From assembly GCF_964355755.1 (NCBI RefSeq), contig NC_092671.1, forward strand, positions 11,780,001-11,844,000: 64,000 bases of DNA, read 5' to 3'. The first letter of the stretch is position 1, and each line of letters opens with the position of its first letter. The DNA is from Antedon mediterranea. Lineage: Eukaryota; Animalia; Echinodermata. The notes under the pieces are model-generated. The model had not been told where the DNA came from. It was given only the letters and a program-made list of their open reading frames with translations, and made no database searches. The position numbers and the translations under genes were made by a program. Of this stretch, positions 832-41,543 are shown one piece after another.

Positions 832-873
832 CTAGACATGTAACTCGTCACTTTGACGAGTTTGGTTATCCGC
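832..873 (-). other. 3' terminus of the element: CTAG end, 9-bp stem-loop and subterminal inverted repeat
   Basis: + strand: CTAG at 832-835; AACTCGTCA-ctt-TGACGAGTT hairpin at 842-862; TTGGTTATCCGC at 862-873 is the reverse complement of the element's other end (GCGGATAACCAA). A hairpin a few nt before CTAG/CTRR is the established Helitron 3' signature. Confidence 0.88.
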
Positions 874-2374: not shown

Positions 2375-2426
2375 GATTTCGTACAATCACAAGAGGTTAT
2401 CCTGCAACTTCGTTGCGGATAACCAA
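2375..2426 (-). other. 5' terminal cap (type A, ~52 bp) with hairpin
   Basis: GATTTCGTACAATCACAAGAGGTTATCCTGCAACTTCGTTGCGGATAACCAA; stem GGTTATCC-(T)-GCAAC / loop TTC / GTTGC-GGATAACC. Near-invariant in ~30 copies across the window. Confidence 0.85.
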
Positions 2427-2430
2427 AAAG

Positions 2431-2431
2431 T

Positions 2432-2462
<31 letters not shown>
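2431..2462 (+). repeat. (GAT)n microsatellite in the linker next to the 5' cap
   Basis: About 10 GAT copies; variable-length copies precede most type A caps (e.g. ~9135, ~30420, ~41266, ~58862). Confidence 0.9.
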
Positions 2463-2464
<2 letters not shown>

Positions 2465-4039: not shown

Positions 4040-4603
4040 CTAGACATGTAACTCGTCACTTTGACGAGTTTGGTTATCCGCCGCGCAAGTGGTGCAACAT
4101 TAACATTAAGGGGATAGGTTGAGGACAAAAGGAAGTGTTCACGTTGGCATTATGACCTGAACTGAAGAATATGATATGTTGTTATTGCTGAATTTTATTA
4201 TTTAAATTCATATATAGTATACACAGTATAATCTGTATCCATATCACATACAGTGTAGAATAGGTGAAATTAATTTTGCGCATTTTGAAATTTTAAATGC
4301 GCGTGCGCGCGTAACTTTGTGTAAAACACGCAATTTTTTTTCAACATAAAGTTAGCGCATGATATAAATTAAACTTTTGCGAAGTTTCAAGTTGAAATGT
4401 TATTTGGTTTTCAACATATGTTAAATACGAGAAAAACGTTAAATCGCGCGTACGTCACGTTGCGCAATTGCAAACATCATGAAAAGCTTCGCTTGACGAC
4501 GTTACGTAAATGTCAATATGTTAAGATAGTTACCGAAATGTTATGTTTGCGAGTTTTAGAGAAAAGCGTTACACAAAAATCATACAGAAAGAAAGAAGAA
4601 AAA
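4040..4603 (-). mobile_element. Internally deleted element copy (~960 bp missing)
   Basis: GAATAGGTGAAATTA is joined directly to ATTTTGCGCATTTTG at 4266-4272 through a shared GAAATTA. Confidence 0.85.
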
Positions 4604-10600: not shown

Positions 10601-10937
10601 AATGTTATTTGGTTTTCGACATATGTTAAATACGAGAAAATCGTTAAATCGCGCGTACGTCACGTTGCGCAATTGTAAACATCATGAAAAGCTTCGCTTG
10701 ACGACGTTACATAAATGTCAAAATGTTAACATAGGTAACAAAATGTTATGTTTGCAAGTTTTAGAGAAAAGCGTTACACAAAAATCATACAGAAAGAAAG
10801 AAGAAAAATAAAAAGTTGATGTTGATGATTTCGTACAATCACAAGAGGTTATCCTGCAACTTCGTTGCGGATAACCAATGATGATGATTTCGTACAATCA
10901 CAAGAGGTTATCCTGCAACTTCGTTGCGGATAACCAA

Positions 10938-12458
10938 CTAGACATGTAACTCGTCACTTTGACGAGTTAGTTATCCGCACGACAAACGCCACGTGCACGT
11001 CATACGTTGGAATATTCCACACAGAAAAAGATTATGGCATTATGACCTGAACTGATGAATATGATAATAGTTGTTAGTGCTGAATTCTGTCAATTTTGAG
11101 TCATATAGTATATAGTACAAACAGTATAATCTGTATATATATTATATACAGTGTAGAATAGGTGAAATTACGGGACCCGCCATTTATTTCAATTTTTAAC
11201 ATGGAGACGGTATCAAAATGAAACACTAAGGTAGCAATTTCGGAAGGAAATTATCTCGGCAACAACATATTATTGTGTAGAAGAAATTAAAATACGTAAA
11301 ATATTGATGCGCGCTCTTTTAAATGTAATGAATTATGACGCAAAAGATGAAAATACGACTTTTTTTATTTAACTGGCCATATGATGACGTCACAACATCC
11401 GATTGGCAAAATTTTCACATGATTTCCTATCTGCAATCAAATAGCTTCTAGAAAACGTTTTAATCGTGATTATCAGATTTTATTCTTACGAGCTATAACA
11501 GATTAAAATTTACTGTAAAGATGAAATTAATGCCACACGTAATTTAAATTTTTAGGCATGATGACGTGACAAAAATTTAAAAAAATTTAATTCATGTGAA
11601 AGATAGTTGATTGACCTACACAATGTTAAAATCGGGGTGAAAATGGAAAACGAATAAGTGGAGAAGCGCTCTATTAAATGTGATGAGCTATGAAGAAAGA
11701 TACAAAAATCCTAAATTGTATATTCGCGTGGCCACACGATGACGTCACAATGTCCGGTTAGCCATATTAATACATGATCCGATATCTACAACTCATCAAC
11801 TTCCAGAAAATGTCATCCACAAAAAGTTGACCGTGCAGTTTAGAAATTACGACTGTTTAAAAAAAGGCATAATTTTGACGAATTTTTGAACTTTTCCATC
11901 AAAAACGCGCGCAAATTGTCCAATTCGACGTGCTCGTATGACGTAACTTTAAGTCGAAATTGTTTAAAAGTTGGTAAAATTACTAGAAAAGGCTGGAAAA
12001 CATAAATCACGCGAAAAAATTATGTTTTCAACGCTACGTGCGCACCGCACACGTTAAAATTTGCGCACGCGTGGGAATTTTTGACATGCTTAAAATGACA
12101 TGAAACGCGTAAAAAGTTGATTATAAATTAATTTTGCGCAATTTGAAATTTTAAATGCGCGTGCGCGCGTAACTTTATGTAAAACACGCAATTTTTTTTC
12201 AACAGAAAGTTAGCACATGATATAAATTAAACTTTTGAAAAGTTTCAATTTAAAATGTTATTTGGTTTTTGACCTATGTTAAATACGAGAAAATCGTTAA
12301 ATCGCGCGTAAGTCACGTTGCGCAATTGTAAACATCCTGAAAAGGTTCGCTGCACAACTTCATATGAATGAAGATATGTTGAGAAAGTTACGAAATGTTA
12401 TGTTTGCAAGTTTTACAGATACGGGTGACACAAAATTTACAGAAAGAAAGAAGATAAA
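10938..12458 (-). mobile_element. Element body, divergent AGTT-subTIR subfamily, no adjacent 5' cap
   Basis: Starts CTAG...GACGAGTTAGTTATCCGCACGACAAACGCC; ends GAAGATAAA directly before the next CTAG. Confidence 0.8.
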
Positions 12459-15400
12459 CTAGACATGTAACTCGTCACTTTGACGAGTTTGGTTATCCGC
12501 CGCGCAAGTGGTGCAACATTAACATTAAGGGGATAGGTAGAGGACAAAAGGAAGTGTTCACGTTGGCATTATGACCTGAACTGAAGAATATGATATGTTG
12601 TTATTGCTGAATTTTATCTATATATAAATTCATATATAGTATACACAGTATAATCTGTATCCATATCACATACAGTGTAGAATATGTGAACTTACGGGAC
12701 CCGCTATTTATTGCAATTTTTAACATGTTGACGGTTTTAAAATGAAACGGGAAGGTAGCAATTCCGAAAGGAAATTATCTCAGCAACAACGTATTAGCGT
12801 GTAGAAGAAATTTGAATACGTGAAATATTGATGCGCGCTCTCTTAAATGTAATGAATTATGACGCAAAAGATGAAAATACGACCTTTTTTATTTAACTGG
12901 CCATATGATGACGTCACAACATCCGATTGGCAACATTTTTACATAATTTCGTATCTACAATCCAATAGCTTCCAGAAAAAGTTTTAATCGTGATTATCAA
13001 ATTTTATTCTTACGAGCTATAAAAGATTAAAATTTACTGTAAAGATGAAATTGATGCCACACGTGATTTAAATTTTTAGGCATGATGACGTCAAAAAAAT
13101 TAAAATATTTTTAACTCATGCGAAAGATAGTTGATTGACCTAGACAATATCAAAATCGGGGTGAAAATGGAAAACGGATAAGTGGAGATGCGCTCTATTC
13201 AATGTGATGAGCTATGACGAAAGATACAAAAATCCTAAATTTTATATTCGCGTGGCCATACGATGACGTCACAAAGTCCGGTTAGCCATATTAATACCTG
13301 ATCCGATATCTACAACTCATCTACTTCTAGAAAATGTCATCCAAAAAAATTTGACCGTCTAGTTTAGAAATTACGACTGTTTAAAAAAAGTCATATTTTA
13401 AAAGAATTTTTTAACCTTTTCATAAAAAACGCGCGCAAATTGGCCAATTCGACATGCTCGTATGACGTATCTTTAAGTCAAAATTGTTTAAAATTTGGTA
13501 AAATTACTAGAAAAGGCTGAAAAAACATAAATCACGCGAAAAAATTACGTTTTCAATTCTACGTGCGCACCGCACACGTAAAAATGTGCGCACGCGTGGG
13601 AATTTTTGACATGCTTAAAACGACATGAAACGCGTAGAAAGTTGATTATAAATTAATTTTGCGCATTTTGAAATTTTAAATGCGCGTGCACGCGTAACTT
13701 TGTGTATAACACGCAATTTTTTTTCAACAGAAAGTTAGCGCATGATATAAATTAAACTTTTGCAAAGTTTCAAGTTGAAATGTTATTTGGTTGTCGAGCT
13801 ATGTTAAATACGACAAAATCGTTAAATCGCGCGTAAGTCACGTTGCGCAATTGTAAACGTCATGAAAAGCTTCGCTTGACGACGTTACGTAAATGTCAAT
13901 ATGTTAAGATAGTTACCAAAATGTTATGTTTGCGAGTTTTGGAGAAAAGCGTTACACAAAAATCATACAGAAAGAAAGAAGAAAAATAAAAAGACTAGAC
14001 ATGTAACTCGTCACTTTGACGAGTTTGGTTATCCGCCGCGCAAGTGGTGCAACATTAACATTAAGGAGATAGGTTGAGGACAAAAGGAAGTGTTCACGTT
14101 GGCATTATGACCTGAACTGAAGAATATGATATGTTGTTATTGCTGAATTTTATTATTTAAATTCATATATAGTATACACAGTATAATCTGTATCCATATC
14201 ACATACAGTGACATACAGTGTAGAATAGGTGAAATTACGGGACCCGCTATTTATTGCAATTTTTAACATGTTGACGGTTTTAAAATGAAACGCGAAGGTA
14301 GAAATTCCGAAAGGAAAATATCTCAGCAACAACGTATTAGCGTGTAGAAGAAATTTGAATACGTGAAATATTGATGCGCGCTCTTTTAAATGTAATGAAT
14401 TATGACGCAAAAGATGAAAATACGACCTTTTTTATTTAACTGGCCATATGATGACGTCACAACATCCGATGGGCAACATTTTTACATAATTTCGTATCTA
14501 CAATCCAATAGCTTCCAGAAAAAGTTTTAATCGTGATTATCACATTTTATTCTTACGAGCTATAACAGATTAAAATTTACTGTAAAGATGAAATTGATGC
14601 CACACGTGATTTAAATTTTTAGGCATGATGACGTCAAAAAAATTAAAATATTTTTAACTCATGCGAAAGATAATTGATTGACCTAGACAATATCAAAATG
14701 GGGGTGAAAATGGAAAACGAATAAGTGAAGATGCGCTCTATTCAATGTGATGAGCTATGACGAAAGATACAAAAATCCTAAATTTTATATTCGCGTGGCC
14801 ATACGATGACGTCACAATGTCCGGTTAGCCATATTAATACCTGATCCGATACCTACAACTCATCTACTTCCAGAATATGTCATCCACAAAAAGTTGACCG
14901 TCTAGTTTAGAAATTACGACTGTTTAAAAAAAGGCATATTTTAAACAAATTTTTTAACCTTTTCGTAAAAAACGCGCGCAAATTGTCCAATTCGACGTGC
15001 TCGTATGACGTATCTTTTAGTCGAAATTGTTTAAAATTTGGTAAAATTACTAGAAAAGGCTGGAAAAACATAAATCACGTGAAAAAAATACGTTTTCAAT
15101 GCTACGTGCGCACCGCACACGTAAAAATGTGCGCACGCGTGGGAATTTTTGACATGCTTAAAACGACATGAAACGCGTAGAAAGTTGATTAGAAATTAAT
15201 TTTGCGCATTTTGAAATTTTAAATGCGCATGCGCGCGTAACTTTGTGTAAAACACGCAATTTTTTTTCAACAGAAAGTTAGCGCATGATATAGATTAAAC
15301 TTTTGCAAAGTTTCACTTTAAAATGTTATTTGGTTTTCGACATATGTTAAATATGAGAAAATCGTTAAATCACGCGTACGTCACGTTGCGCAATTGTAAA

Positions 15401-15652
15401 CATCATGAAAAGCTTCGCTTGACGACGTTACATAAATGTCAAAATGTTAACATAGTTAACAAAATGTTATGTTTGCAAGTTTTAGAGAAAAGCGTTACAC
15501 AAAAATCATACAGAAAGAAAGAAGATTAAGAAAAAGATGATGATGATTTCGTACAATCACAAGAGGTTATCCTGCAACTTCGTTGCGGATAACCAATGAT
15601 GATTTCGTACAATCACAAGAGGTTATCCTGCAACTTCGTTGCGGATAACCAA

Positions 15653-17177
15653 CTAGATTTGAACTCGTCACTTTGACGAGTTCGGGTTATCCGCGCAAAG
15701 GCAACATGCACATACTTTAAACTATATGAACTTCGACAAATATTATGCCATCCTATGACATGAATTAAACATGTTTACAGTGCTGAATTGTACCTATTAT
15801 GTAGCATACAGCATGTTATAGAATACACTGTTATATGTTATATACAGTGTAGTATATACGAAATTACGAGACCATCTTTTAAATCCAATTGTTAACACGA
15901 TGATGTCATCAAATTGACATATAAAGATAACTATTTTAGAAGATAATTATCTAAATAATTACATTAATACAAATTTGAAGAATGTTGGGCACGTAAAAGT
16001 GACATGCGCTCTCGTTTAAACGCAATGAACTTTTACGCAAAGGATAAAAATACGACTTTTTTTATTCAACTGGCCATATGATGACGTCACAGGATCTGGT
16101 TGGCAAAATATTTACATGAATTCGTATCTACAATTCAATGACTTCCAGAAAACGTTTAAATCATGAATATCACTTTTTATTCTGACGAGATATAACAGAT
16201 TAAAATTCACTGTAAAGATGAAAATAAGTGACCCACGTTGTTTAGATTTTTAGACATGATGACGTCATAAGAATTAAAATATTTTAACTCCTGCGAAAGA
16301 TAGTTGATTGACGTAGACAATATTAAAATCTCTGGGGAAATGGAATACGTATAAGTGAGATGCGCTCTGTTGAATGTGATGAGCAATAACGAAAGAGACA
16401 AAAATCCTATATTTTATATTTTAGTGGCCATGCGATGACGTCACAATGTCCGCTTAGCCATATCGATGCATGATTTGATATCTAAAACTCATCTACTTCC
16501 AGAATCTGAAATTTTGAAAATGTTAACCACGGAGTTTAGAATCTATGACTTTTTAAAGAAAGGCATAATTTTCACGAATTTTTGAACTTTTTCATCAAAA
16601 ACGTGCGTAAATTGTTCAATTCTACGTGCTCGTATGACGTGATTTTAAGTCGAAATTGATTGAAAATTGGTATATTTACTATAAAAGGCTGAAAAAACAA
16701 AAATCAAGCATAACAAAGATGTTTTTGCGCCACGTGCGTACGCGCGCGTAAAAAAATTGCGCACGCGTGGGAATTTTTGAAATGCTCAAAATGACATGAA
16801 ACGCGTAGAAAGTTGATTAGAAGTTGATTTTTCGCATTTTGAAATTTTAAACGCGCGTGCGCGCGTAACTTTTTGCGCAATCTGCCATTTTTAATCCATA
16901 GAAATTTTGCGCATGATATGACTTAAATTTTCACCAAGTTTCAATACAAAATGACTTTTGGTTTTTAATCTATGATCAATCATTGAAATTCATAAAATCG
17001 CACGTAACTTACGCTGCGCAACTCCGATATCGTCGAAAAGCTTGGCTGCAAATCTACAGCTATAGGTGAATCTTATGACAAAGGTATACAATCTTATGTT
17101 GGCCAGAATTAGAGATACCCTGCGAACAAAATTCGTGGAAAGAAAGAAGAATAAGATAGAAAAAAAAAAAGAAAAAA
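15653..17177 (-). mobile_element. Strongly diverged long element body (CTAGATTTG subfamily), interrupted in its poly-A linker
   Basis: CTAGATTTGAACTCGTCACTTTGACGAGTTCGGGTTATCCGC start; colinear with but clearly diverged from the major unit; its probable cap is at 18390-18440. Confidence 0.8.
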
Positions 17178-18389
17178 CTAGATTTGAACTCGTCACTACG
17201 GACGAGTTAGGTTATCCGCAGCGCAAAAGCCACGTGCACGTCGTACGTTAGAATATTGCGCGCAAAAAAACGATTATGGCATTGAAAAAATGTTAGTGCG
17301 CTCTCTATTTTGCGTCACGTCTAAGTGTATACGGTATAACACTATATACTGTATACGTACTACATACAGTGCGGAATAGGTGAAAATAAGTGACCAAAGT
17401 TATTGACGCATTTGAACATGATGACGTCATCACAATTTTAAAAATGGTGAATCATGGGAAAGATAATTGATTGACCTAGACAATAATAAAAAAATGATGG
17501 AATTGGAAAATGGATAAAGGAGATGCGCTCTATTAAATGTGACGAGCTATGACGAAAGAGAAAAAAATCCTATATTTCATATTCGAGTGGCCAAACGATG
17601 ACGTCACAATGTCCGGTTAGCCATATCGATGCATGATTCGATATCTACAACTCATCAACTTCTAGAATGTGTAATTTAAAAAAAGTTCACCTCGTAGTTT
17701 ACAATCTATGACTGTTTTAAAAAAGACATAATTTGGACGAATTTTTGAACTTTTTCTTCAAAAACGCGCGCAAATTGTTCAATTCTACGTGCTCGTATGA
17801 CGTGATTTTAAGTCGAAATTGATTGAAAATTGGTAAATTTACTAGAAAAGGCTGAAAAAACAAAAATAAAGCAAAAAAAAGAGGTTTTTGCGCTATGTGC
17901 GCACGCGCGCGTAAAAAAAGTGCGCACGCGTGGGAATTTTTGAAACGCTCAAAATGACATGAAACGCGTAGAAAGTTGATTAGAAATTGATTTTTCGCAT
18001 TTTGAAATTTTAAATGCGCGTGCGCACGTAACTTTCTGCGCAACCTGCCATTTTTAATCCATAGAAAGTTTCCGATTAATATGACTTAAATTTTCACCAA
18101 GTTTCAAAACAAAATTACTTTTGGTTTTTAATCTATGATCAATCATTGAAATTCATAAAATCGCGCGTAAGTTACGCTGCGCAACTCGGACTGGACCGAA
18201 AACCTTATTACGACATCTTCAGACAGAGGTCAATCTTCTGATAAAGTTATACAATGTTATGTTAAGAAGATTTTGAGATACACGCGCAACAAAATTCATG
18301 GAAAGAAAGAAGAAAAAAGAAAAAAAAGAAAAAAAAAAAAAAGATCCTGACAATAACAAGAGGTTATCCGCCAAAGTGCGGATAACCAA
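17178..18389 (-). mobile_element. Short (~1.2 kb) subfamily element with type B cap
   Basis: CTAGATTTGAACTCGTCACTACGGACGAGTTAGGTTATCCGC start; lacks one ~355-bp internal repeat; cap GATCCTGACAATAACAAGAGGTTATCCGCCAAAGTGCGGATAACCAA. Confidence 0.82.
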
Positions 18390-18440
18390 AAAAAGATCCT
18401 GACAATAACAAGGGGTTATCCGCCAAGTGCGGATAACCAA

Positions 18441-20039
18441 CTAGACATGTAACTCGTCACTTTGACGAGTTTGGTTATCCGCCGCGCAAATGGTGCAACA
18501 TTAACATTAAGGGGATAGGTTGAAGACAAAAGGAAGTGTTCACGTTGGCATTATGACCTGAACTGAAGAATATGATATGTTGTTATTGCTGAATTTTATT
18601 ATTTATATTCATATATAGTATACACAGTATAATCTGTATCCATATCACATACAGTGACATACATAGAATAGGTGAAATTACGGGACCCGCTATTTATTGC
18701 AATTTTTAACATGTTGACGGTTTTAAAATGAAACGCGAAGGTAGCAATTCCGAAAGGAAATTATCTCAGCAACAACGTATTAGCGTGTAGAAGAAATTTG
18801 AATACGTGAAATATTGATGCGCGCTCTTTTAAATGTAATGAATTATGACGCAAAAGATGAAAATACGACCTTTTTCATTTAACTGGCCATATGATGACGT
18901 CACAACATCCAATTGGCAACATTTTTACATAATTTCGTATCTACAATCCAATAGCTTCCAGAAAAAGTTTTAATCGTGATTATCACATTTTATTCTTACG
19001 AGCTATAACAGATTAAAATTTACTGTAAAGATGAAATTACTGCCACACGTGATTTTAATTTTTAGGCATGATGACGTCAAAAAAATTAAAATATTTTTAA
19101 CTCATGCGAAAGATAGTTGATTGACCTAGACAATGTCAAAATCGGGGTGAAAATTGAAAACGGATAAGTGGATATGCGCTCTATTCAATGTGATGAGCTA
19201 TGACAAAAGATACAAAAATCCTAAATTTTATATTCGCGTGGCCATACGATGACGTCACAATGTCCGGTTAGCCATATTAATACCTGATCCGATATCTACA
19301 ACTCATCTACTTCCAGAATATCCCATCCACAAAAAGTTGACCGTCTAGTTTAGAAATTACGACTGTTTAAAAAAAGGCATTTTTTAAACGAATTTTTTAA
19401 CCTTTTCATAAAAAACGCGCGCAAATTGTCCAATTCGACGTGCTCGTATGACGTATCTTTAAGTCGAAATTGTTTAAAATTTGGTAAAATTACTAGAAAA
19501 GGCTGGAAAAACATAAATCACGCGAAAAAAATACGTTTTCAATGCTACGTGCGCACCGCACACGTAAAAATGTGCGCACGTGTGGGAATTTTTGACATGC
19601 TTAAAACGACATGAAACGCGTAGAAAGTTGATTATAAATTAATTTTGCGCATTTTGAAATTTTAAATGCGCGTGCGCGCGTAACTTTGTGTAAAACACGC
19701 TATTTTTTTTCAACAGAAAGTTAGCGCATAATATAAATTAAACTTTTGCAAAGTTTCACTTTAAAATGTTATTTGGTTTTCGACATATGTTAAATACGAG
19801 AAAATCGTTAAATCGCGCGTACGTCACGTTGCGCGATTGTAAACATCATGAAAAGCTTCGCTTGACGACGTTACATAAATGTCTAAATGTTAACATAGTT
19901 AACAAAATGTTATGTTTGCAAGTTTTAGAGAAAAGCGTTACACAAAAATCATACAGAAAGAAAGAAGATTAAGAAAAAGATGATGATGATTTCGTACAAT
20001 CACAAGAGGTTATCCTGCAACTTCGTTGCGGATAACCAA
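18441..20039 (-). mobile_element. Intact major-subfamily element
   Basis: Both termini present with a single type A cap. Confidence 0.83.
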
Positions 20040-21632
20040 CTAGACATGTAACTCGTCACTTTGACGAGTTAGTTATCCGCACGACAAACGCCACGTGCAC
20101 GTCATACGTTAGAATATTGCACACAGAAAAAATTATGGCATTATGACCTGATCTGAAGAATATGATATGTTGTTAGTGCTGAATTCTGTCAATTTTGTGT
20201 CATATAGTATATACATGCAAACAGTATAATCTGTATACATGTTACATACAGTGTAGAATAGGTGAAATTACGGGACCCGCCATTTATTCAAATTTGTAAC
20301 ATGGCGACGGTATCAAGATGAAACACTAAGATAGCAATTTCGGAAGCAAATTATCTCAGCAACAACATATTAACGTGTAGAAGAAATTTGAATACGTTTA
20401 ATATTGATGCGCGCTCTTTTAAATATAATGAACTATGATGCAAACGATGAAAATACGACTTTTTTTATTTAACTTGCAATATGATGACGTCACAGCATCT
20501 GATTGGCAAAATGTTCACATGATTTCATATCTACAATCCAAGAGCTTCCAGAAAATGTTTTAATCGTGATTATCACATTTTATTTTGACGGGCTATTACA
20601 GATTAAAATTTACTGTAAAGATGAAATTAATGACCCACGTAATTAAAATTTTTAGGCATGATGACGTCATAAAAATTAAAATATTTTTATCTCATGCGAA
20701 AGATAGTTGATTGACCTAGACAATATTAAAATCTCGGAGAAAAAGAAATACGTATAAGCGTGATGCGCTCCATTGAATGTGATGAGCAATAACGAAAGAC
20801 AAAAAAATTCTATATTTTACATTCGTGTGGCCATATGATGACGTCACAACATCCGTGAGGTAAAAATTCTGCATGAATTCATATCTACAACATATCTGCT
20901 TACATATTAAGTTAAAAAAATTAGGGGTAATCGTTGATCCTGAGAAGCTATAAAACATTCAAAATAGGCATAATTTTGACAACATTTTGTAACTTTTTCA
21001 ACTAAAACGCGTGCAAATGGGCTAAATCAACGTGTTCGTATGACGTAATTTTAATTTGAAATGATGTCAATCTTTTTGAAAATGACTAGGAAAGGCTGGA
21101 AAATCACAATTCAAGAGAAAAAAACATGATTTTCAGGCTCTATGCGCACCGTGCGCGTAATATTTTTCGCGCGCGCGGTAATTTTGTACATGCTTAAAAT
21201 GACATGAAACGCGTAGAAAGTTGATTAGAAATTATTTTTGCGCATTTTGAAATTTTAAATGCGCGTGCGCGCGTAACTTTGTGTAAAACACGCAATTTTT
21301 TTCAAACAGAAAGTTAGCGCATGATATAAATTAAACTTTCACAAAGTGTCAATTAAAAATCACTTTTAGTTTTTAATCTATGATCAATCATAAAAAATCA
21401 TAAAATCGCGCGTAAGTCACGTTGCGCAACTCTGACGTAATTTAAAAATAGGAGGTGCACAACTTCACGTAAATGCCCACATGTTGTCAAAGTTATAAAA
21501 TGTTATGTTTACACATTTTAGAGAAACGCTCTACACAAAAATAGCGAGAAAGAAAGAAGAATAATACAGAAAAAAATATTGATCCCATACAATAACAAGG
21601 AGTTATCCGCCAACTTCGTTGCGGATAACTAA
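20040..21632 (-). mobile_element. Intact divergent AGTT-subfamily element with its own cap
   Basis: subTIR TTAGTTATCCGC near 20069 pairs with terminal GCGGATAACTAA at 21621-21632. Confidence 0.82.
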
Positions 21633-24600
21633 TACAGAAAAAAAAAAAAAAAGATGATGAAACAGGACAGTTACAAGGAGTTATCCGCTGAGTGCGGATA
21701 ACTAACTAGACATGTAACTCGTCACTTTGACGAGTTTGGTTATCCGCCGCGCAAGTGGTGCAACATTAACATTAAGGGGATAGGTTGAGGACAAAAGGAA
21801 GTGTTCACGTTGGTGTTATGACCTGAACTGAAGAATATGATATGTTGTTATTGCTGAATTTTATTATTTAAATTCATATATAGTATACACAGTATAATCT
21901 GTATCCATATCACATACAGTGTAGAATAGGTGAAATTACGGGACCCGCTATTTATTGCAATTTTTAACATGTTGACGGTTTTAAAATGAAACGCGAAGGT
22001 AGCAATTCCGAAAGGAAATTATCTCAGCAACAACGTATTAGCGTGTAGAAGAAATTTGAATACGTGAAATATTGATGCGCGCTCTTTTAAATGTAATGAA
22101 TTATGACGCAAAAGATGAAAATACGACCTTTTTTATTTAACTGGCCATATGATGACGTCACAACATCCGATTGGCAAAATTTTTACATAATTTCGTATCT
22201 ACAATCCAATAGCTTCCAGACAAAGTTTTAATCGTGATTATCACATTTTATTCTTACGAGCTATAACAGATTAAAATTTACTGTAAAGATGAAATTAATG
22301 CCACACGTGATTTAAATTTTTAGGCACGATGACGTCAAAAAAATTAAAATATTTTTAACTCATGCGAAAGATACTTGATTGACCTAGACAATATCAAAAT
22401 CGGGGTGAAAATGGAAAACGGATAAGTGGAGATGCGCTCTATTCAATGTGATGAGCTATGACGAAAGATACAAAAATCCTAAATTTTATATTCGCGTGGC
22501 CATACGATGACGTCATAATGTCCGGTTACCCATATTAATACCTGATCCGATATCTACAACTCATCTACTTCCAGAATATGTCATCCACAAAAATTTGACC
22601 GTCTAGTTTAGAAATTACGACTGTTTAAAAAAAGGCATATTTTAAACGAATTTTTTAACCTTTTCATAAAAAACGCGCGCAAATTGTCCAATTCGACGTG
22701 CTCGTATGACGTATCTTTAAGTCGAAATTGTTTAAAATTTGGTAAAATTACTAGAAAAGGCTGAAAAAACATAAATCACGCGAAAAAAATACGTTTTCAA
22801 TGCTACGTGCGCACCTTACACGTAAAAATGTGCGCACGCGTGGGAATTTTTGACATGCTCAAAACGACATGAAACGCGTAGAAAGTTGATTAGAAATTAA
22901 TTTTGCGCATTTTGAAATTTTAAATGCGCATGCGCGCGTAACTTTGTGTAAAACACGCAATTTTTTTTCAACAGACAGTTAGCGCATGATATAAATTAAA
23001 CTTTTGCAAAGTTTCATTTTAAAATGTTGTTTGGTTTTCGACATATGTTAAATACGAGAAAATCGTTAAATCGCGCGTACGTCGCGTTGCGCAATTGTAA
23101 ACATCATGAAAAGCTTCGCTTGACGACGTTACGTGAATGTCAAAATGTTAACATAGTTAACAAAATGTTATGTTTGCAAGTTTTAGAGAAAAGCGTTACA
23201 CAAAAATCATACAGAAAGAAAGAAGATGAAAACTAGACATGTAACTCGTCACTTTGACGAGTTTGGTTATCCGCCGCGCAAGTGGTGCAACATTAACATT
23301 AAGGGGATAGGTTGAGGACAAAAGGAAGTGTTCACGTTGGCATTATGACCTGAACTGAAGAATATGATCTGTTGTTATTGCTGAATTTTATTATTTAAAT
23401 TCATATATAGTATACACAGTATAATCTGTATCCATATCACATACAGTGTAGAATAGGTGAAATTACGGGACCCGCTATTTATTGCAATTTTTAACATGTT
23501 GATGGTTTTAAAATGAAACGCGAAGTTAGCAATTCCGAAAGCAAATTATCTCAGCAACAACGTATTAGCGTGTAGAAGAAATTTGAATACGTTAAATATT
23601 GATGCGCGCTCTTTTAAATGTAATGAACTATGACGAAAAAGATGAAAATACGACCTTTTTTATTTAACTGGCCATATGATGACGTCACAACATCCGATTG
23701 GCAACATTTTTACATAATTCCATATCTACAATCCAATAGCTTCCAGAAAAAGTTTTAATCGTGATTATCACATTTTATTCTTACGAGCTATAACAGATTA
23801 AAATTTACTGTAAACATGAAATTGATGCCACACGTGATTTAAATTTTTAGGCATGATGACGTCAAAAAAAATAAAATATTTTTAACTCATGCGAAAGATA
23901 GTTGATTGACCTAGACAATATCAAAATCGGGGTGAAAATGGAAAACGGATAAGTGGAGATGCGCTCTATTCAATGTGATGAGCTATGACGAAAGATACAA
24001 AAATACTAAATTTTATATTCGCGTGGCCATACGATGACGTCACAATGTCCGGTTAGCCATATTAATACCTGATCCGATATCTACAACTCATCTACTTCCA
24101 GAATATGTCATCCACAAAAATTTGACCGTCTAGTTTAGAAATTACGACTGTTTAAAAAAAGGCATATTTTAAACGAATTTTTTAACCTTTTCATAAAAAA
24201 CGCGCGCAAATTGTCCAATTCGACGTGCTCGTATGACGTATCTTTAAGTCGAAATTGTTTAAAATTTGGTAAAATTACTAGAAAAGGCTGGAAAAACATA
24301 AATCACGCGAAAAAAATACGTTTTCAATGCTACGTGCGCACCGCACACGTAGAAATGTGCGCACGCGTGGGAATTTTTGACATGCTTAAAACGACATGAA
24401 ACGCGTAGAAAGTTGATTATAAATTAATTTTGCGCATTTTGAAATTTTAAATGTGCGTGCGCGCGTAACTTTGTGTAAAACATGCAATTTTTTTTCAACA
24501 GAAATTTAGCGCATGATATAAATTAAACTTTTGCAAAGTTTCACTTTAAAATGTTGTTTGGTTTTCGACATATGTTAAATACGATAAAATCGTTAAATCG

Positions 24601-24760
24601 CGCGTACGTCACGTTGCGCAATTGTAAACATCATGAAAAGCTTCGCTTGACGACGTTACATAAATGTCAAAATGTTAACATAGTTAACAAAATGTTATGT
24701 TTGCGAGTTTTACAGAAAAGCGTTACACAAAAATCATACAGAAAGAAAGAAGAAGAATAA

Positions 24761-26293
24761 CTAGACATGTAACTCGTCACTTTGACGAGTTAGTTATCCG
24801 CACGACAAACGCCATGTGCACGTCATACGTTGGAATATTCCACACAGAAAAAGATTATGGCATTATGACCTGAACTGATGAATATGATATGTTGTTAGTG
24901 CTGAATTCTGTCAATTTTTTGTCTTATAGTATATAGTACAAACAGTATAATCTGTATATATATTATATACAGTGTAGAATAGGTGAAATTACGGGACCCG
25001 CCATTTATTTCAATTTTTAACATGGAGACGGTATCAAAATGAAACAGTAACACTAAGGTTGCAATTTCGGAAGGAAATTATCTCGGCAACAACATATTAA
25101 TGTGTAGAAGAAATTTAAATACGTAAAATATTGGTGCACGCTCTTTTAAATGTAATGAATTATGACGCAAAAGATGAAAATACGACTTTTCTTACTTAAC
25201 TGGACATATGATGACGTCACAACATCCGAATGGCAAAATTTTTACATGATTTTGTATCTACAATCCAATAGCTTCCAGAAAACGTTTTAATCGTGATTAT
25301 CACATTTTATTCTTACGAGCTATAACAGATTAAAATTTTCTGTAAAGATGAAATTAATGCCACATGTAATTTAAATTTTTAGGCATGATGACGTCATAAT
25401 AATTAAAATATTTTTAACTCATGCGAAAGATAGTTGATTGACCTAGACAATATCAAAATCGGGGTGAAAATGAAAAATGGATAAGTGGAGATGCGCTCTA
25501 TTAAATGTGATGAGCTATGACGAAAGATACAAAAATCCTCAATTTTATATTCGCGTGGCCATACGATGACGTTAAAATGTCCGGTTAGCCATATTAATAC
25601 ATGATCCGATATCTATAACTCATCTACTTCAAGAATATGTCATCCACAAAAAATTGACCGTCCAGTTTAGAAATTACGACTGTTTAAAAAAAGGCATAAT
25701 TTTGACAAATTTTTGTACTTTTTCATAAAAAACGTGCGCAAATTGTCCAATTCGACGTGCTCGTATGACGTAACTTTAAGTCGAAAGTGTTTAAAAGTTG
25801 GTAAAATTACTATAAAAGGCTGGAAAAACATAAATCACTCGAAAAAAATATGTTTTTAATGCTACGTGCGCACCGCACACGTAAAAATGTGCGCACGCGT
25901 GGGAATTTTTTACATGCTTAAAATGACATGAAACGCGTAGAAAGTTGATTAGAAATTAATTTTGCGCATTTTGAAATTTTAAATGCGCGTGCACGCGTAA
26001 CTTTTTGTAAAACATGCCATTTTTAGTGCACTAACAGTTTGCCCTTCATATGACTTAAATTTTCATAAAGGGTAAACAAAAAATTACTCTTGGTTTTTAA
26101 GCTATGATCAATCATTAAAAATCATAAAATCGCGCGCAAGTCACGTTGCGCAACTCTGACGTCATTCAAAATAGGAGATGCACAACTTCACGTAAATGCC
26201 CACATGTTGTCAAAGTTATAAAATGTTATGTTTACACATTTTAGAGAAACGTGACTCACAAAAAAATGGGAAAGAAATAAGAAGAATACAGAA
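24761..26293 (-). mobile_element. AGTT-subfamily element body, interrupted in its linker
   Basis: Ends GAATACAGAA|CTAG; the matching AGTT-type cap is at ~30353-30413. Confidence 0.8.
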
Positions 26294-27897
26294 CTAGACA
26301 TGTAACTCGTCACTTTGACGAGTTTGGTTATCCGCCGCGCAAGTGGTGCAACATTAACATTAAGGAGATAGGTTGAGGACAAAAGGAAGTGTTCACGTTG
26401 GCATTATGACCTGAACTGAAGAATATGATATGTTGTTATTGCTGAATTTTATTATTTAAATTCATATATAGTATACACAGTATAATCTGTATCCATATCA
26501 CATACAGCTCAGTGACATACAGTGTAGAATAGGTGAAATTACGGGACCCGCTTTTTATTGCAATTTTTAACATGTTGACGGTTTTAAAATGAAACGCGAA
26601 GGTAGCAATTCCGAAAGGAAATTATCTCAGCAACAACGTATTAGCGTGTAGAAGAAATTTGAATACGTGAAATATTGATGCGCGCTTTTTTAAATGTAAT
26701 GAATTATGACGCAAAAGATGAAAATACGACCTTTTTTATTTAACTGGCCATATGATGACGTCACAACATCCGATGGGCAACATTTTTACATAATTTCGTA
26801 TCTACAATCCAATAGCTTCCAGAAAAAGTTTTAATCGTGATTATCACATTTTATTCTTACGAGCTATAACAGATTAAAATTTACTGTAAAGATGAAATTG
26901 ATGCCACACGTGATTTAAATATTTAGGCATGATGACGTCAAAAAAATTAAAATATTTTTAACTCATGCGAAAGATAGTTGATTGACCTAGACAATATCAA
27001 AATCGGGGTGAAAATGGAAAACGAATAAGTGGAGATGCGCTCTATTCAATGTGATGAGCTATGACGAAAGATACAAAAATCCTAAATTTTATATTCGCGT
27101 GGCCATACGATGACGTCACAATGTCCGGTTAGCCATATTAATACCTGATCCGATACCTACAACTCATCTACTTCCAGAATATGTCATCCACAAAAAGTTG
27201 ACCGTCTAGTTTAGAAATTACAACTGTTTAAAAAAAGGCATATTTTAAACGAATTTTTTAACCTTTTCATAAAAAACGCGCGCAAATTGTCCAATTCGAC
27301 GTGCTCGTATGACGTATCTTTAAGTCGAAATTGTTTAAAATTTGGTAAAATTACTAGAAAAGGCTGGAAAAACATAAATCACGCGAAAAAAATACGTTTT
27401 CAATGCTACGTGCGCACCGCACACGTAAAAATGTGCGCACACGTGGGAATTTTTGACATGCTTAAAACGACATGAAACGCGTAGAAAGTTGATTATAAAT
27501 TAATTTTGCGCATTTTGAAATTTTAAATGCGCGTGCGCGCGTAACTTTGTGTAAAACACGCAATTTTTTTTCAACAGAAAGTTAGCGCATGATATAAATT
27601 GCAAAGTTTCACTTTAAAATGTTATTTGGTTTTCGACATATGTTAAATACGAGAAAATCGTTAAATCGCGCGTACGTCACGTTGCGCAATTGTAAACATC
27701 ATGAAAAGCTTCGCTTGACGACGTTACATAAATGTCAAAATGTTAACATAGTTAACAAAATGTTATGTTTGCAAGTTTTAGAGAAAAGCGTTACACAAAA
27801 ATCATACAGAAAGAAAGAAGATTAAGAAAAAGATGTTGATGATTTCGTACAATCACAAGAGGTTATCCTGCAACTTCGTTGCGGATAACCAAAAAAA

Positions 27898-29050
27898 CTA
27901 GATTTGAACTCGTCACTACGGACGAGTTAGGTTATCCGCATCGCAAAACCCACGCGCATGACACCTAAGTTAGAATATTGCGCGCAGAAAAACGATTATG
28001 CCATTGAAAAAATGTTAGTGAGCCCTCTATTTTGTGTCGCGTCTAAGTGTGTACGGTATACACTATATACTGTATACGTACTACATACAGTGCAGAATAG
28101 GTGAAAATAAGTGACCAAAGTTATTGACGCATTTGAACATGATGACGTCATCACAATTTTAAAAATGGTGAATCATGCGAAAGATAATTGATTGATCTAG
28201 ACAATATAAAAAAATTGAGTGAAATGGAATACAGATAAGTGGAGATGCGCTCTATTAAATTTGACGAGCTATGACAAAAGAGAAAAAAATCCTATATTTT
28301 ATATTCGGGTGGCCATACGATGATGTCACAATGTCCGGTTAGCCATATCAATGCATGATTCGAGAAAAACAACTCATCTACTTCCAGAATATGTAATTTT
28401 AAAAAAGTTCACCACGTAGTTTAGAATTTATGACTGTTTAAAAAAAGGTCTAATTTTGACGATTTTTTGAAGTTTTTCATCAAAAACACGCGCAAATTAT
28501 CCAATTCTACGTGCTCGTGTGACGTGATTTTCAGTCGAAATTGATTGAAAATTCATAAATTTACTAGAAAAGGCTGAAAAAACAAAAATCAAGCAAAAAA
28601 AAGATGTTTTTGCGCTACGTGCGCACGCGCGCGTAAAAAAATTGCGCACGCGTGGGAATTTTTGAAATGCTCAAAATGACATGAAACGCATAGAAAGTTG
28701 ATTAGAAATTGATTTTTCGCATTTTGAAATTTCAAACGCGCATGCGCGCGTAACTTTTTGTGAAACATGCCATTTTTAATCCATAAAAAGTTTGCGCATG
28801 ATCTCACTTAAATTTTCACAAAGTTTCAATACAAAACAACTTTTAGTTTTTATTCTATGATCAATCATTGAAATTCATGAAATCGCGCGTAACTTACACT
28901 GCGCAACTCCAAAATCGTCCAAAAGCTTGGCTGCACATCTACAGCTATAGGTCAACCTTATGACAAAGTTATACAATCTTATGTTGGCCACAAGATAGAG
29001 ATGTGCTGCGAACAAAATTCGGGGAAAGAAAGAAGAATAACATAGAAAAA
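27898..29050 (-). mobile_element. Short-subfamily element body, interrupted in its poly-A linker
   Basis: CTAGATTTG start, ~1.15 kb, ends CATAGAAAAA|CTAG. Confidence 0.8.
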
Positions 29051-30202
29051 CTAGATTTGAACTCGTCACTACGGACGAGTTAGGTTATCCGCAGCGCAAA
29101 AGCCACGTGCACGTCGTACGTTAGAATATTGCGCGCAGATAAACGATGATGCCATTGAAACAATTTCAGTTTTCTCTCTATTTTGCGTCACGTCTAAGTA
29201 TATACGGTATACACTATATTATACTCTATACGTACTACATACAGTGCAGAATAGGTGAAAATAAGTGACCAAAGTTATTGACGCTTTTGGACATGATGAC
29301 GTCATCACAATTTTTAAACTAATGAATCATACGAAAGATAATTGATTGACTTAGACAATATAAAGAAATGGAGGGCAATGGAATACGGATAAGTCGAGAT
29401 GCGCTCTATTAAATGTGATGAGCTCTACGAAAGAGAAAAAAATCCTATATTTTATATTCGAGTGGCCATACGATGACGTCACAATGTCCGGTTAGCCATA
29501 TCGATGCATGATTTGATATTTACAACTCATCTACTTCCAGAATCTGAAATTTAAAAAATTTTCACCTCGGAGTTTAGAATCTATGACTTTTTAAAAAAAG
29601 GCATAATTTTCACGAATTTTTGAACTTTTTCATCAAAAACGCGCGCAAATTGTTCAATTCTACGTGCTCGTATGACGTGATTTTAAGTCCAAATTGTTTG
29701 AAAGTTGGTAAATTTACTAGAAAAGGCTGGAAAAACAAAAATCAAACAAAAAAAAGATGTTTTTGCGCTACGTGCGCACGCGCGCGTAAAAAAATTGCGC
29801 ATGCCTGGGAATTTTTGAAATGCTCAAAATGACATGAAACGCGTAGAAAGTTGATTAGAAGTTGATTTTTTGCATTTTGAAATTTTAAACGCGCGTGCGC
29901 GCGTAACTTCCTGTGAAACATGCCATTTTTAATCCATAGAAAGTTTGCGCTTGATATGACTTAAATGTTCACTAAGTTTCAATATAAAATGACTTTCGGT
30001 TTTTAATCTATGATCAATCATTTAAATTCATAAAACCGCGCGTAACTTACGCTGCGCAACTCAAAATTCATAAAAAAAAGTTTCTTGCACATCTACAGCT
30101 ACAGGGCAATCTTTTGACAAAGTTATACAATCATATGTTTGCCAGAGTTAGAGATACGCTGCGAACAAAATTCGTGGAAAGAAAGAAGAACATAGAAAAA
30201 AA

Positions 30203-30233
<31 letters not shown>

Positions 30234-30277
30234 GATCCTGACAATAACAAGGGGTTATCCGCCAAGTGCGGATAACC

Positions 30278-30279
<2 letters not shown>
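29051..30279 (-). mobile_element. Intact short-subfamily element with type B cap
   Basis: CTAGATTTG start; poly-A linker; cap GATCCTGACAATAACAAGGGGTTATCCGCCAAGTGCGGATAACCAA at 30234-30279. Confidence 0.82.
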
Positions 30280-30308
<29 letters not shown>

Positions 30309-30489
30309 TCCTGACAATAACAAGGGGTTATCCGCCAAGTGCGGATAACCAAAAAAAAAAATATTGATCCACTACAATCACAAGGAGTTATCCGCTACTA
30401 AGCGGATAACTAAAAAGTTGATGATGATGATGATGATGATTTCGTACAATCACAAGAGGTTATCCTGCAACTTCGTTGCGGATAACCAA
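30234..30489 (-). repeat. Stack of four 5' caps from three subfamilies (B, B, AGTT-type, A)
   Basis: Caps end at 30279, 30352, 30413 and 30489, separated by poly-A or (GAT)n linker halves. Confidence 0.9.
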
Positions 30490-33400
30490 CTAGACATGTA
30501 ACTCGTCACTTTGACGAGTTTGGTTATCCGCCGCGCAAGTGGTGCAACATTAACATTAAGGGGATAGGTTGAGGACAAAAGGAAGTGTTCACGTTGGCAT
30601 TATGACCTGAACTGAAGAATATGATATGTTGTTATTGCTGAATTTTATTGTTTAAATTCATATATAGTATACACAGTATAATCTGTATCCATATCACATA
30701 CAGTGTAGAATAGGTGAAATTACGGGACCCGCTATTTATTGCAATTTTTAACATGTTGACGGTTTTAAAATGAAACGCGAAGGTAGCAATTCCGAAAGGA
30801 AATTATCTCAGCAACAACGTCTTAGCGTGTAGAAGAAATTTGAATACGTGAAATATTGATGCGCGCTCTTTTAAATGTAATGAATTATGACGCAAAAGAT
30901 GAAAATACGACCTTTTTCATTTAACTGGCCATATGATGACGTCACAACATCCGATTGGCAACATTTTTACATAATTTCGTATCTACAATCCAATAGCTTC
31001 CAGAAAAAATTTTAATCGTGATTATCACATTTTATTCTTACGAGCTATAACAGATTAAAATTTACTGTAAAGATGAAATTAATGCCACACGTGATTTAAA
31101 TTTTTAGGCATGATGACGTCAAAAAAATTAAAATATTTTTAACTCATGTGAAAGATACTTGATTGACCTAGACAAAATCAAAATCGGGGTGAAAATGGAA
31201 AACGGATAAGTGGAGATGCGCTCTATTCAATGTGATGAGCTATGACGAAAGATACAAAAATCCTAAATTTTATATTCGCGTGGCCATACGATAACATCAC
31301 AATGTCCGGTTAGCCATATTAATACCTGATCCGATATCTACAACTCATCTACTTCCAGAATATGCCATCCACAAAAAGTTGACCGTCTAGTTTAGAAATT
31401 ATGCCTGTTTAAAAAAAGGCATATTTTAAACGAATTTTTTAACCTTTTCATAAAAAACGCGCGCAAATTGTCCAATTCGACGTGCTCGTATGACGTATCT
31501 TTAAGTCGAAATTGTTTAAAATTTGGTAAAATTACTAGAAAAGGCTGGAAAAACATAAATCACGCAAAAAAAGTACGTTTTCAATACTACGTGCGCACCG
31601 CACACGTAAAAATGTGCGCACGCGTGGGAATTTTTGACATGCTTAAAACGACATGAAACGCGTAGAAAGTTGATTATAAATTAATTTTGCGCATTTTTAA
31701 ATTTTAAATGCGCGTGCGCGCGTAACTTTGTGTAAAACACGCAATTTTTTTTCAACAGAAAGTTAGCGCATGATATAAATTAAACTTTTGCAAATTTTCA
31801 AGTGGAAATGTTATTTGGTTGTCGAGCTATGTTAAATACGACAAAATCGTTAAATCGCGCGTAAGTCACGTTGCGCAATTGTAAACGTCATGAAAAGCTT
31901 CGCTTGACGACGTTACGTAAATGTCAATATGTTAAGATAGTTACCGAAATGTTATGTTTGCGAGTTTTAGAGAAAAGCGTTACACAAAAATCATACAGAA
32001 TGATTTCGTACAATCACAAGAGGTTATCCTGCAACTTCGTTGCGGATAACCAACTAGACATGTAACTCGTCACTTTGACGAGTTTGGTTATCCGCCGCGC
32101 AAGTGGTGCAACATTAACATTAAGGGGATAGGTTGAGGACAAAAGGAAGTGTTCACGTTGGCATTATGACCTGAACTGAAGAATATGATATGTTGTTATT
32201 GCTGAATTTTATTATTTAAATTCATATATAGTATACACAGTATAATCTGTATCCATATCACATACAGTGTAGAATAGGTGAAATTACGGGACCCGCTATT
32301 TATTGCAATTTTTAACATGTTGACGGTTTTAAAATGAAACGCGAAGGTAGCAATTCCGAAAGGAAATTATCTCAGCAACAACGTATTAGCGTGTAGGAGA
32401 AATTTGAATACGTGAAATATTGATGCGCGCTCTTTTAAATGTAATGAATTATGACGCAAAAGATGAAAATACGACCTTTTTTATTTAACTGGCCATATGA
32501 TGACGTCACAACATCCGATTGGCAACATTTTTACATAATTTCGTATCTACAATCCAATAGCTTCCAGAAAAAGTTTTAATCGTGATTATCACATTTTATT
32601 TTTACGAGCTATAACAGATTAAAATTTACTGTAAAGATGAAATTGATGCCACACGTGATTTAAATGTTTAGGCATGATGACGTCAAAAAAATTAAAATAT
32701 TTTTAACTCATGCGAAAGATAGTTGATTGACCTAGACAATATCAAAATCGGGGTGAAAATGGAAAACGTATAAGTGGAGATGCGCTCTATTCAATGTGAT
32801 GAGCTATGACGAAAGATACAAAAATCCTAAATTTTATATTCGCGTGGCCATACGATGACGTCACAATGTCCGGTTAGTCATATTAATACCTGATCCGATA
32901 TCTACAACTCATCTACTTCTAGAATATGTCATCCACAAAAATTTGACCGTCTAGTTTAGAAATTACGACTGTTTAAAAAAAGGCATATTTTAAACGAATT
33001 TTTTAACCTTTTCATAAAAAACGCGCGCAAATTGTCCAATTCGACGTGCTCGTATGACGTATCTTTAAGTCGAAATTGTTTAAAATTTGGTAAAATTACT
33101 AGAAAAGGCTGGAAAAACATAAATCACGCGAAAAAAATACGTTTTCAATGCTACGTGCGCACCGCACACGTAAAAATTTGCGCACGCGTGGGAATTTTTG
33201 ACATGCTTAAAACGACATGAAACGCGTAGAAAGTTGATTAGAAATTAATTTTGCGCATTTTGAAATTTTAAATGCGCGTGTGCGCGTAACTTTGTGTAAA
33301 ACATGGAATTTTTTTTCAACAGAAAGTTAGCGCATGATATAAATTAAACTTTTGCAAAGTTTTAAATTGAAATGTTATTTGGTTGTCGAGCTATGTTAAA

Positions 33401-41286: not shown

Positions 41287-41543
41287 GATTTCGTACAATC
41301 ACAAGAGGTTATCCTGCAACTTCGTTGCGGATAACCAAAAATAAAAAGATGATGATTTCGTACAATCACAAGAGGTTATCCTGCAACTTCGTTGCGGATA
41401 ACCAATGATGATGATTTCGTACAATCACAAGAGGTTATCCTGCAACTTCGTTGCGGATAACCAATAAAAAGTTGATGATGATGATGATGATGATTTCGTA
41501 CAATCACAAGAGGTTATCCTGCAACTTCGTTGCGGATAACCAA
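41287..41543 (-). repeat. Stack of four type A 5' caps
   Basis: Caps end at 41338, 41405, 41464 and 41543, following four consecutive cap-less bodies (33628-39732) plus the adjacent body. Confidence 0.9.

What the first reader, a model, noticed from the sequence alone, without database searches (positions are those of the whole stretch)
20040..21632. Three-way compensatory change linking the two element ends
The major subfamily has TTGGTTATCCGC at one end and GGTTATCC...GCGGATAACCAA in the cap. The intact divergent elements at 20040, 50940 and 58932 all have TTAGTTATCCGC at one end and AGTTATCCGC...GCGGATAACTAA in the cap. The same G>A change therefore appears at three positions ~1.5 kb apart while cap loops vary freely (CAACTTCGTT, TGAGT, TGAAT, TACTAA, CAAGT). 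Inference: the 5' terminal 12-mer can pair either locally (hairpin) or with the 3' subTIR, or these are three matched transposase-binding sites under selection.
Basis: partly seen in the sequence, partly recalled or inferred. Interest (0 to 1): 0.7.

Follow-up and report, generated by a model that had tools for sequence, protein, structure and literature searches.

The report
Matched ends of self-nesting rolling-circle transposons
About 40 copies of a small non-coding element, likely a rolling-circle (Helentron-type) transposon, sit nested inside one another's ends, and each copy's three short end repeats match even when its two halves lie kilobases apart; this is a clear new example of a known end design, and variants in other organisms' runs suggest the local hairpin is the stricter constraint.

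Summary
Confirmed and extended. Bases 1-62234 are about 40 same-strand copies of a ~1.6-kb non-coding element with the DINE-1/HINE (Helentron, HLE2) end plan on the minus strand: 5' subTIR plus adjacent inverted repeat, 3' subTIR, stem-loop, CTAG. The array grew by nested insertion without target duplication. Bracket-matching pairs all 5 A-type heads with A-type caps (two of them split, spanning 10.8 and 5.7 kb) and all 4 heads of a third subfamily with their own caps (37 of 37 pairs concordant by class).
Corrections: the shared core is 10 bp, not 12; the head difference includes a 1-nt indel; A is probably older than the major subfamily's G; trees need two concerted changes.
The 5' hairpin looks like the stricter constraint. 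Its predicted energy is near constant in 8 cap types, the major subfamily's inner arm carries a bulge, and three other organisms' runs show a paired A-T/T-A swap in the hairpin with no matching change listed at the third copy (unlinked contigs).
Matched repeats that change between subfamilies, and self-insertion, are published for this group; the scan noted similar nests in other genomes. No autonomous partner was found.

The parts
20040..21632 (-). Intact A-type non-autonomous element (HINE/DINE-1-like), 1593 bp, no ORF of 100 aa or more
21621..21632 (-). 5' subTIR (outer arm of the 5' hairpin), A-type; element starts with TT
21601..21610 (-). Inner inverted repeat (IR) that is predicted to pair with the 5' subTIR; loop 21611-21620
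20069..20080 (-). 3' subTIR, A-type (variable base 20071)
20050..20070 (-). 3' stem-loop (9-10 bp stem, 3-nt loop), likely terminator of rolling-circle copying
   Evidence: role inferred from the literature
20040..20043 (-). 3' terminal CTAG; followed by T on the minus strand in 40 of 40 copies
21545..21590 (-). T-rich stretch (A-rich on +) just inside the 5' hairpin; the zone where nested copies land, 51-85 nt from the 5' end (bounds approximate)
10938..12458 (-). Body and 3' end of a split A-type element whose 5' end is 21633-21705
21633..21705 (-). Orphan A-type 5' end belonging to the element that starts at 10938
24761..26293 (-). Body and 3' end of a split A-type element; rest at 27893-27897 and 30353-30413
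30353..30413 (-). Orphan A-type 5' end belonging to the element that starts at 24761
50940..52538 (-). Intact A-type element
58932..60512 (-). Intact A-type element
15653..18440 (-). Third subfamily (F): element 15653-17177 + 18390-18440, with 17178-18389 nested in it; G-state, 10-bp match only
27898..30352 (-). Third subfamily (F): element 27898-29050 + 30280-30352, with 29051-30279 nested in it
1..62234 (-). Nested array: 39 intact heads, 1 damaged head (6140), 39 caps, all one orientation; open at the left window edge
62235..62289 (-). Orphan 5' end of a different family: related flank, different perfect stem (arms 62257-62269 and 62276-62288); its other end is not in the window

Best explanation
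These are likely non-autonomous Helentron-type (HLE2; HINE/DINE-1-like) rolling-circle elements, stacked by insertion into each other's 5' ends, and the three matching repeats are the 5' subTIR, its adjacent inverted repeat and the 3' subTIR. Shown: the layout, the nesting, the absence of target duplication, and the class match of both ends. Inferred: on the displaced single strand the 5' subTIR folds back on the adjacent repeat, and this hairpin is the signal that a Rep/Hel transposase, supplied in trans, recognises and nicks beside. The 3' subTIR next to the terminator stem-loop is kept nearly identical because the same sequence is likely read again, or paired with the 5' subTIR, when the ends are joined; this constraint tolerates some mismatch. 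Concerted A/G shifts occurred at least twice on the trees, A probably preceding the G of the young major subfamily. Inferred: because the enzyme is drawn to resident 5' ends, new copies land at the end itself or in the T-rich stretch 51-85 nt inside it, which builds the array.
For: Architecture matches DINE-1 (subTIRs, IR beside the 5' subTIR, 3' stem-loop, T-rich target, no target change; passages). 37 of 37 bracket-matched head-cap pairs agree in class (28 G, 5 A, 4 F); chance that the 4 split minor elements get the right orphan caps is 5e-5. Split hosts rejoin without gain or loss: 43109 rebuilds the intact tail of 44649; sisters 23233 and 52539 (0.07% apart), cut at different bases, rebuild one identical tail. 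40 of 40 heads follow an A and none is reversed. 5' hairpin energy is -10.7 to -11.7 kcal/mol in all 8 cap types folded, including the AT-rich foreign cap, which has a 13-bp stem. The major inner arm has a 1-nt bulge yet keeps 13 pairs. Runs X5, X11 and X16 (organisms B, D, F) show A>T at 60620 and T>A at 60641, the two sides of one hairpin pair; run X1 shows neither. Core conserved in all copies against 49% invariant interior columns. The A label needs 2 changes in all 4 segment trees; A as one clade is weakly rejected in interior (p-AU 0.045) and tail (0.024).
Against: No autonomous element or Rep/Hel gene was found, so the family rests on end structure alone. The 3' CTAG and frequent A|T targets are Helitron1 or proto-Helentron traits, not typical HINE traits. 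A as one clade is not rejected in the head (p-AU 0.128) or cap (0.307) segments, so one origin plus interior exchange remains open. Long-range pairing is predicted to dominate in 8 of 12 own-end junctions but also in 53 of 94 cross-class ones. The contig evidence at the third copy is an absence in unlinked short contigs; X16 does not cover it and 26 loose-end rows were not shown. Three heads stay unclosed and some G-type head-cap pairings conflict.
Confidence: 0.7

Rival explanations
1. Strict three-way pairing switch: the 5' subTIR must pair first with the inner repeat and then with the 3' subTIR across the joined ends of a single-stranded circle, so all three must match.
For: All 5 A-type elements match at all three places although their bodies differ by 10-18% and are mosaics with major-like interiors. 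Joined ends are predicted to fold both ways within a few kcal/mol; G head with A cap mostly loses the long-range stem (P 0.01-0.20 in 14 of 15 combinations).
Against: A head with G cap still favours long-range pairing (P 0.73-0.79 for 4 of 5 A heads); 4 of 12 own-end junctions favour the local hairpin. F subfamily matches over 10 bp only. No change listed at 60684 where caps carry the swap in organisms B and D.
Confidence: 0.2
2. Three sequence-specific double-stranded binding sites for the transposase; pairing is incidental.
For: The core sequence itself, not only its complementarity, is invariant in heads and outer arms across three subfamilies. Mixed-class junctions occur as often as chance predicts (7 of 17 against 6.4), which fits one enzyme handling all end types.
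Against: The most abundant subfamily has a 1-nt insertion inside the inner copy (30 of 39 caps). An A-T to T-A swap and a foreign cap with a different stem keep pairing and energy but not sequence.
Confidence: 0.15
3. No selection for matching: the repeats are homogenised by template switching or mismatch repair within paired inverted repeats, and subfamily ends stay linked because gene conversion replaces interiors but not the more divergent ends.
For: Template switching can create and maintain hairpins (listing and start of abstract only, 10.1101/2021.04.15.439925). Interiors of A elements contain blocks 1-5% from the major subfamily while their ends differ by 19-39%. Only two or three concerted events are seen.
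Against: Homogenisation alone does not explain why the core stays the same across lineages with about half of interior columns changed (rough P 2e-8), nor the constant hairpin energy.
Confidence: 0.2
4. The block is an ordinary satellite or rolling-circle concatemer and the matches reflect duplication of whole units.
For: Head-to-tail, one orientation, ~1.5-kb period; six near-identical pairs (0.07-0.8%).
Against: Abutting neighbours differ by 2.4-20.9% (5 pairs); near-identical sisters sit in different contexts; caps close in last-in-first-out order.
Confidence: 0.03

Closest known systems
DINE-1 / HINE non-autonomous Helentrons (PMC4067079, PMC2374699; passages read)
   Same: SubTIRs, a partial or interrupted inverted repeat beside the 5' subTIR, stem-loop after the 3' subTIR, microsatellite near the 5' end, central repeat, no ORF, T-rich target without duplication; subTIR sequence differs between species and between D. 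willistoni subtypes.
   Different: Core match is 10-12 bp; 3' end is CTAG; targets include A|T as well as T|T; copies here are concentrated in a nested array rather than seen dispersed.
Oyster Cg_HINE (PMC7492417; passages read)
   Same: 5' subTIR + IR, 3' subTIR + palindrome; element-specific changes in subTIR, IR and stems; one-mismatch subTIR pairs are common there.
   Different: Cg_HINEs carry satellite arrays inside the element; here the elements themselves make up the array.
FoHeli1/2 of Fusarium oxysporum (PMC5148889 passages and section 16; PMC13342296 passages)
   Same: [quoted passage not shown]
   Different: Autonomous fungal elements with a few stacked ends; here about 40 non-autonomous copies of three subfamilies, up to about 8 levels deep by simple stack count.
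proto-Helentron of Phytophthora (passages)
   Same: 5' TT, 3' CTAG, insertion between A and T, no duplication.
   Different: There the inverted repeats and stem-loop are arranged differently (HLE2-reverse-like); here the layout is the DINE-1 one.

Membership tests
HINE/DINE-1 (non-autonomous HLE2/Helentron) | Subterminal inverted repeats of about 11-15 bp, one at the 5' end and one 38-60 bp from the 3' end | tested here: met
   12-bp match in G and A types, 10-bp in F; 3' copy spans 30-42 nt from the end. Slightly shorter and closer to the end than the mite range.
HINE/DINE-1 (non-autonomous HLE2/Helentron) | Short inverted repeat 3-22 bp from the 5' subTIR (DINE-1 type) | tested here: met
   39 of 39 caps, spacer 5-10 nt
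HINE/DINE-1 (non-autonomous HLE2/Helentron) | Stem-loop between 3' subTIR and 3' end | tested here: met
   8-10 bp stems, -6.9 to -10.7 kcal/mol for the 50-nt end
HINE/DINE-1 (non-autonomous HLE2/Helentron) | No target-site duplication | tested here: met
   Split hosts rebuild sister or intact tails exactly in several cases; one (6140) has one extra A
HINE/DINE-1 (non-autonomous HLE2/Helentron) | Insertion at TT in T-rich DNA | tested here: inconclusive
   3' side is T in 40 of 40; the 5' side is T in 11 and A in 10 of 21 host-tail junctions; 17 abut a resident TT end. T-rich, but not only T|T.
HINE/DINE-1 (non-autonomous HLE2/Helentron) | No coding capacity | tested here: met
   2 ORFs of 100 aa or more in 64 kb (108 and 118 aa), not shared among copies
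HINE/DINE-1 (non-autonomous HLE2/Helentron) | Autonomous partner with the same ends encoding an HLE2 Rep/Hel transposase | not testable with these tools
   No genome held; viral and metagenome scans gave nothing related
Canonical Helitron (HLE1) | 5' TC end and no terminal inverted repeats | tested here: not met
   5' end is TT and subTIRs are present
Canonical Helitron (HLE1) | 3' hairpin followed by CTRR | tested here: met
   Stem-loop then CTAG
MITE (cut-and-paste) | [quoted passage not shown] | tested here: not met
   3' repeat is internal and no duplication is seen

The most novel reading that the evidence does not exclude
HLE2 ends work as a single-strand folding switch: a 5' hairpin tuned to about -11 kcal/mol that can refold onto the 3' subTIR when the ends are joined, with the transposase nicking beside resident 5' hairpins so that the family builds satellite-like blocks purely by self-targeted insertion. 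This locus and its relatives would then hold a natural variant series (A/G shift, bulged arm, A-T swap, foreign stem) that separates structure reading from sequence reading in a group whose ends, in the papers searched here, have no functional test.
Probability: 0.25. Interest if true: 0.65.

Novelty: new member of a known kind. Interest (0 to 1): 0.38.

Why it matters
The role of Helentron subTIRs is inferred, not tested, in the papers read here. This array gives a ready set of natural end variants and an internal control (split copies whose ends still match), and it points to the 5' hairpin as the tighter constraint. It also shows how a transposon can build a satellite-like block by targeting its own end, which a repeat annotator would likely call a 1.5-kb tandem repeat.

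Tried and rejected
Whole genome: none held, so no genome-wide linked covariation. Head pattern: 0 hits in viral and metagenome contigs. Cap pattern: 12 metagenome loci; 0 of 12 has similarity beyond the hairpin, and 11 of 12 hold only the two arms, so they were treated as chance hairpins. Rfam: 0 matches on 18400-21800. Sequencing-run search: no RNA holder listed; this is no evidence on expression. Right flank 62235-64000 has no significant similarity to the element. The other end of the foreign cap was not found in the window or seen in the laid contigs (tables cut). Rolling-circle concatemer and plain satellite readings rejected. A count of A-diagnostic columns gave 5 of 1699, all within 100 columns of the ends, but the four-gamete profile shows conflict at the ends as well (8 of 44 and 9 of 23 columns), so it was not used as proof of end linkage. 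Paper searches for a functional or covariation test of Helentron ends listed none among the 27 rows shown; two searches showed only 12 of 35 and 12 of 540 papers. Supplements were not read; the subTIR tables of PMC4067079 and PMC7492417 may already show three-way changes.

Full report
Observation. The window is 33-35% GC with only 2 ORFs of 100 aa or more. The 12-mer of the finding occurs 77 times with up to one mismatch against 0.51 expected. The elements at 20040, 50940 and 58932 carry A at all three homologous places, as stated.

Anatomy. Bases 1-62234 consist of a ~1.6-kb element in one orientation: 39 intact heads, one head with a deletion of about 110 bp at 6140, and 39 caps. Read on the minus strand, each element starts with TT and a subTIR that is predicted to fold back on an inverted repeat 5-10 nt away. 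A (TCA)n or T-rich stretch follows, then a body with a diverged internal repeat (about 140 bp, 70-75% alike), the reverse copy of the subTIR, a stem-loop and CTAG. This is the layout described for DINE-1 and HINEs (passages of PMC4067079 and PMC2374699) and for HLE2 in general (passages of PMC11417382).

The array is a nest. Treating heads and caps as brackets gives 37 pairs, and all agree in class: 28 major (G), 5 A-type, 4 of a third subfamily F. Four minor elements are split by later insertions and still close on the right cap; chance among the 18 orphan caps is 5e-5. Two of them are A-type, spanning 10.8 kb (10938 to 21705) and 5.7 kb (24761 to 30413), which extends the finding from 3 to 5 cases. 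Split hosts rejoin cleanly: 43109 gives the intact tail of 44649, and sisters 23233 and 52539, cut at different bases, give one identical tail. All 40 heads follow an A. Seventeen abut a cap exactly; the 18 orphan cap pieces are 51-85 nt long; none of the 40 insertions lies in the interior, although 374 of 406 like dinucleotides of a reference copy lie outside its last 110 nt, and none is reversed. Abutting neighbours differ by 2.4-20.9% (5 pairs), which excludes a concatemer. Junctions between classes are as common as chance (7 of 17 against 6.4), so insertion does not need a matching resident end. A into G and G into A insertions both occur, so the subfamilies moved in overlapping periods. 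Not resolved: three heads stay open, and within the major subfamily some pairings conflict (21706 fits the cap at 60571 by its sister 60648, against the stack order); loss or gain of short stacked caps by recombination is a likely cause.

How many events? Major copies with full bodies lie 0.07-4% from their nearest neighbour; the five A copies lie 10-18% from each other. In trees of head, interior, tail and cap segments of 12 representatives (all 9 minor copies and 3 of the 21 rebuilt major copies), G and F are each one side of a branch, with A between them, so the A label needs two changes in all four. One A clade is weakly rejected for interior (p-AU 0.045) and tail (0.024) but not for head (0.128) or cap (0.307). 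The trees have no outgroup; A preceding the major G is inferred from the youth of the major clade. The elements are mosaics: A copies hold interior blocks 1-5% from the major subfamily while their first and last 100-column windows differ by 19-39%. So there are about two concerted shifts, too few for a covariation statistic.

Which constraint? All three copies are conserved: the 9-bp core is intact in 39 of 39 intact heads and 39 of 39 outer arms, against 456 of 927 invariant interior columns (rough P 2e-8). The local hairpin looks tighter than the three-way match. Its predicted energy is -10.7 to -11.7 kcal/mol in all 8 cap types folded. The major inner arm has an extra T but keeps 13 pairs. 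An orphan cap of another family at 62235-62289 has a related flank, a different AT-rich 13-bp stem and the same energy; contigs of X1 and X5 show that it also forms stacks (joint 62289 to 62233). Laying contigs on 60590-60730 listed only two variant places at 1% or more: A>T at 60620 and T>A at 60641, the two sides of one pair, in X5 (29 and 20 contigs), X11 (one contig at equal depth for both) and X16, and not in X1. No change was listed at the homologous base 60684 of the 3' subTIR, which X5 and X11 cover. These are short unlinked contigs, X16 does not cover that base and 26 loose-end rows were hidden, so this is a hint, not proof. The F subfamily matches over 10 bp only, and the A head is also 1 nt shorter than the G head. 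Folding of joined ends puts the local and long-range forms within about 4 kcal/mol; long-range pairing dominates in 8 of 12 own-end and 53 of 94 cross-class junctions, with G head plus A cap the clearly poor class.

Distribution. 24 runs of 11 studies and at least 7 coded organisms hold part of the stretch. In the laid runs X1 and X5 summed depth on the element is about three orders of magnitude above the flank; the tool states that this is no copy number. A-type heads appear as loose ends in all four runs.

Mechanism. Most likely a Rep/Hel transposase supplied in trans recognises the 5' hairpin, nicks at the TT end, copies to the 3' stem-loop and joins the ends, with the 3' subTIR read or paired at that step (inferred from Helitron2 work; circles are reported for FoHeli1). 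Attraction of the enzyme to resident 5' ends would explain the targeting. Template switching within the paired repeats may be how two or three positions change together (listing only).

Comparison. Matched subTIR, IR and subTIR that change between subfamilies are described for DINE-1, Cg_HINE and FoHeli1/2, one-mismatch subTIR pairs are common in Cg_HINE, and stacked 5' ends from self-insertion are described for FoHeli. Passages of a centromere atlas preprint describe nested centromeric clusters of LTR elements and mention Helitrons only in passing; passages of PMC13085455 propose nested Helitron insertions. Three earlier notes of this scan report similar nests in other genomes; they were read after the nesting was worked out here and are not support. 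The CTAG end and A|T targets are a small departure from typical HINEs. Membership rests on end structure, since no transposase gene was found.

Verdict. A real and well-ordered feature, a new member of a known kind. Interest 0.38.

Noticed in passing
window 62235-62289: Orphan 5' end of a different family with a different perfect stem; possibly the outermost host of the nest. It is abundant and stacked in runs X1 and X5.
   Followed up: partly
window 33618-33627: A 10-nt fragment of a head (starts CTAG) between a cap and the next full head; no remainder found in the window.
   Followed up: partly
window 6140-7556: Copy that has lost about 110 bp including the 3' stem-loop and subTIR, yet was itself used as a host for a later insertion.
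   Followed up: partly
window 4040-4603: Internally deleted copy (about 955 bp missing between element positions 233 and 1189).
   Followed up: no
window 21201-21212: The only run of 9 or more invariant columns (12 nt) in the interior of all 12 representative copies; possible internal signal.
   Followed up: no
every element, e.g. window 20486-20850: Two or three TGACGTCA palindromes per copy (28 of 40 have three), the CRE-type motif (name recalled); thousands of copies could supply many such sites.
   Followed up: no
window 7557, 30490, 32054, 41544, 47833: A sub-lineage of the major type lacks most of the A-rich landing stretch; none of these five copies is split by a later insertion.
   Followed up: no
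window 20040-21632, alignment columns 800-1200: The central part of this copy differs by 20-38% from every other copy in the window, so it came from a lineage not otherwise present here.
   Followed up: partly
window 62305-62350: A short inverted repeat just beyond the array whose arms resemble part of the subTIR core.
   Followed up: no
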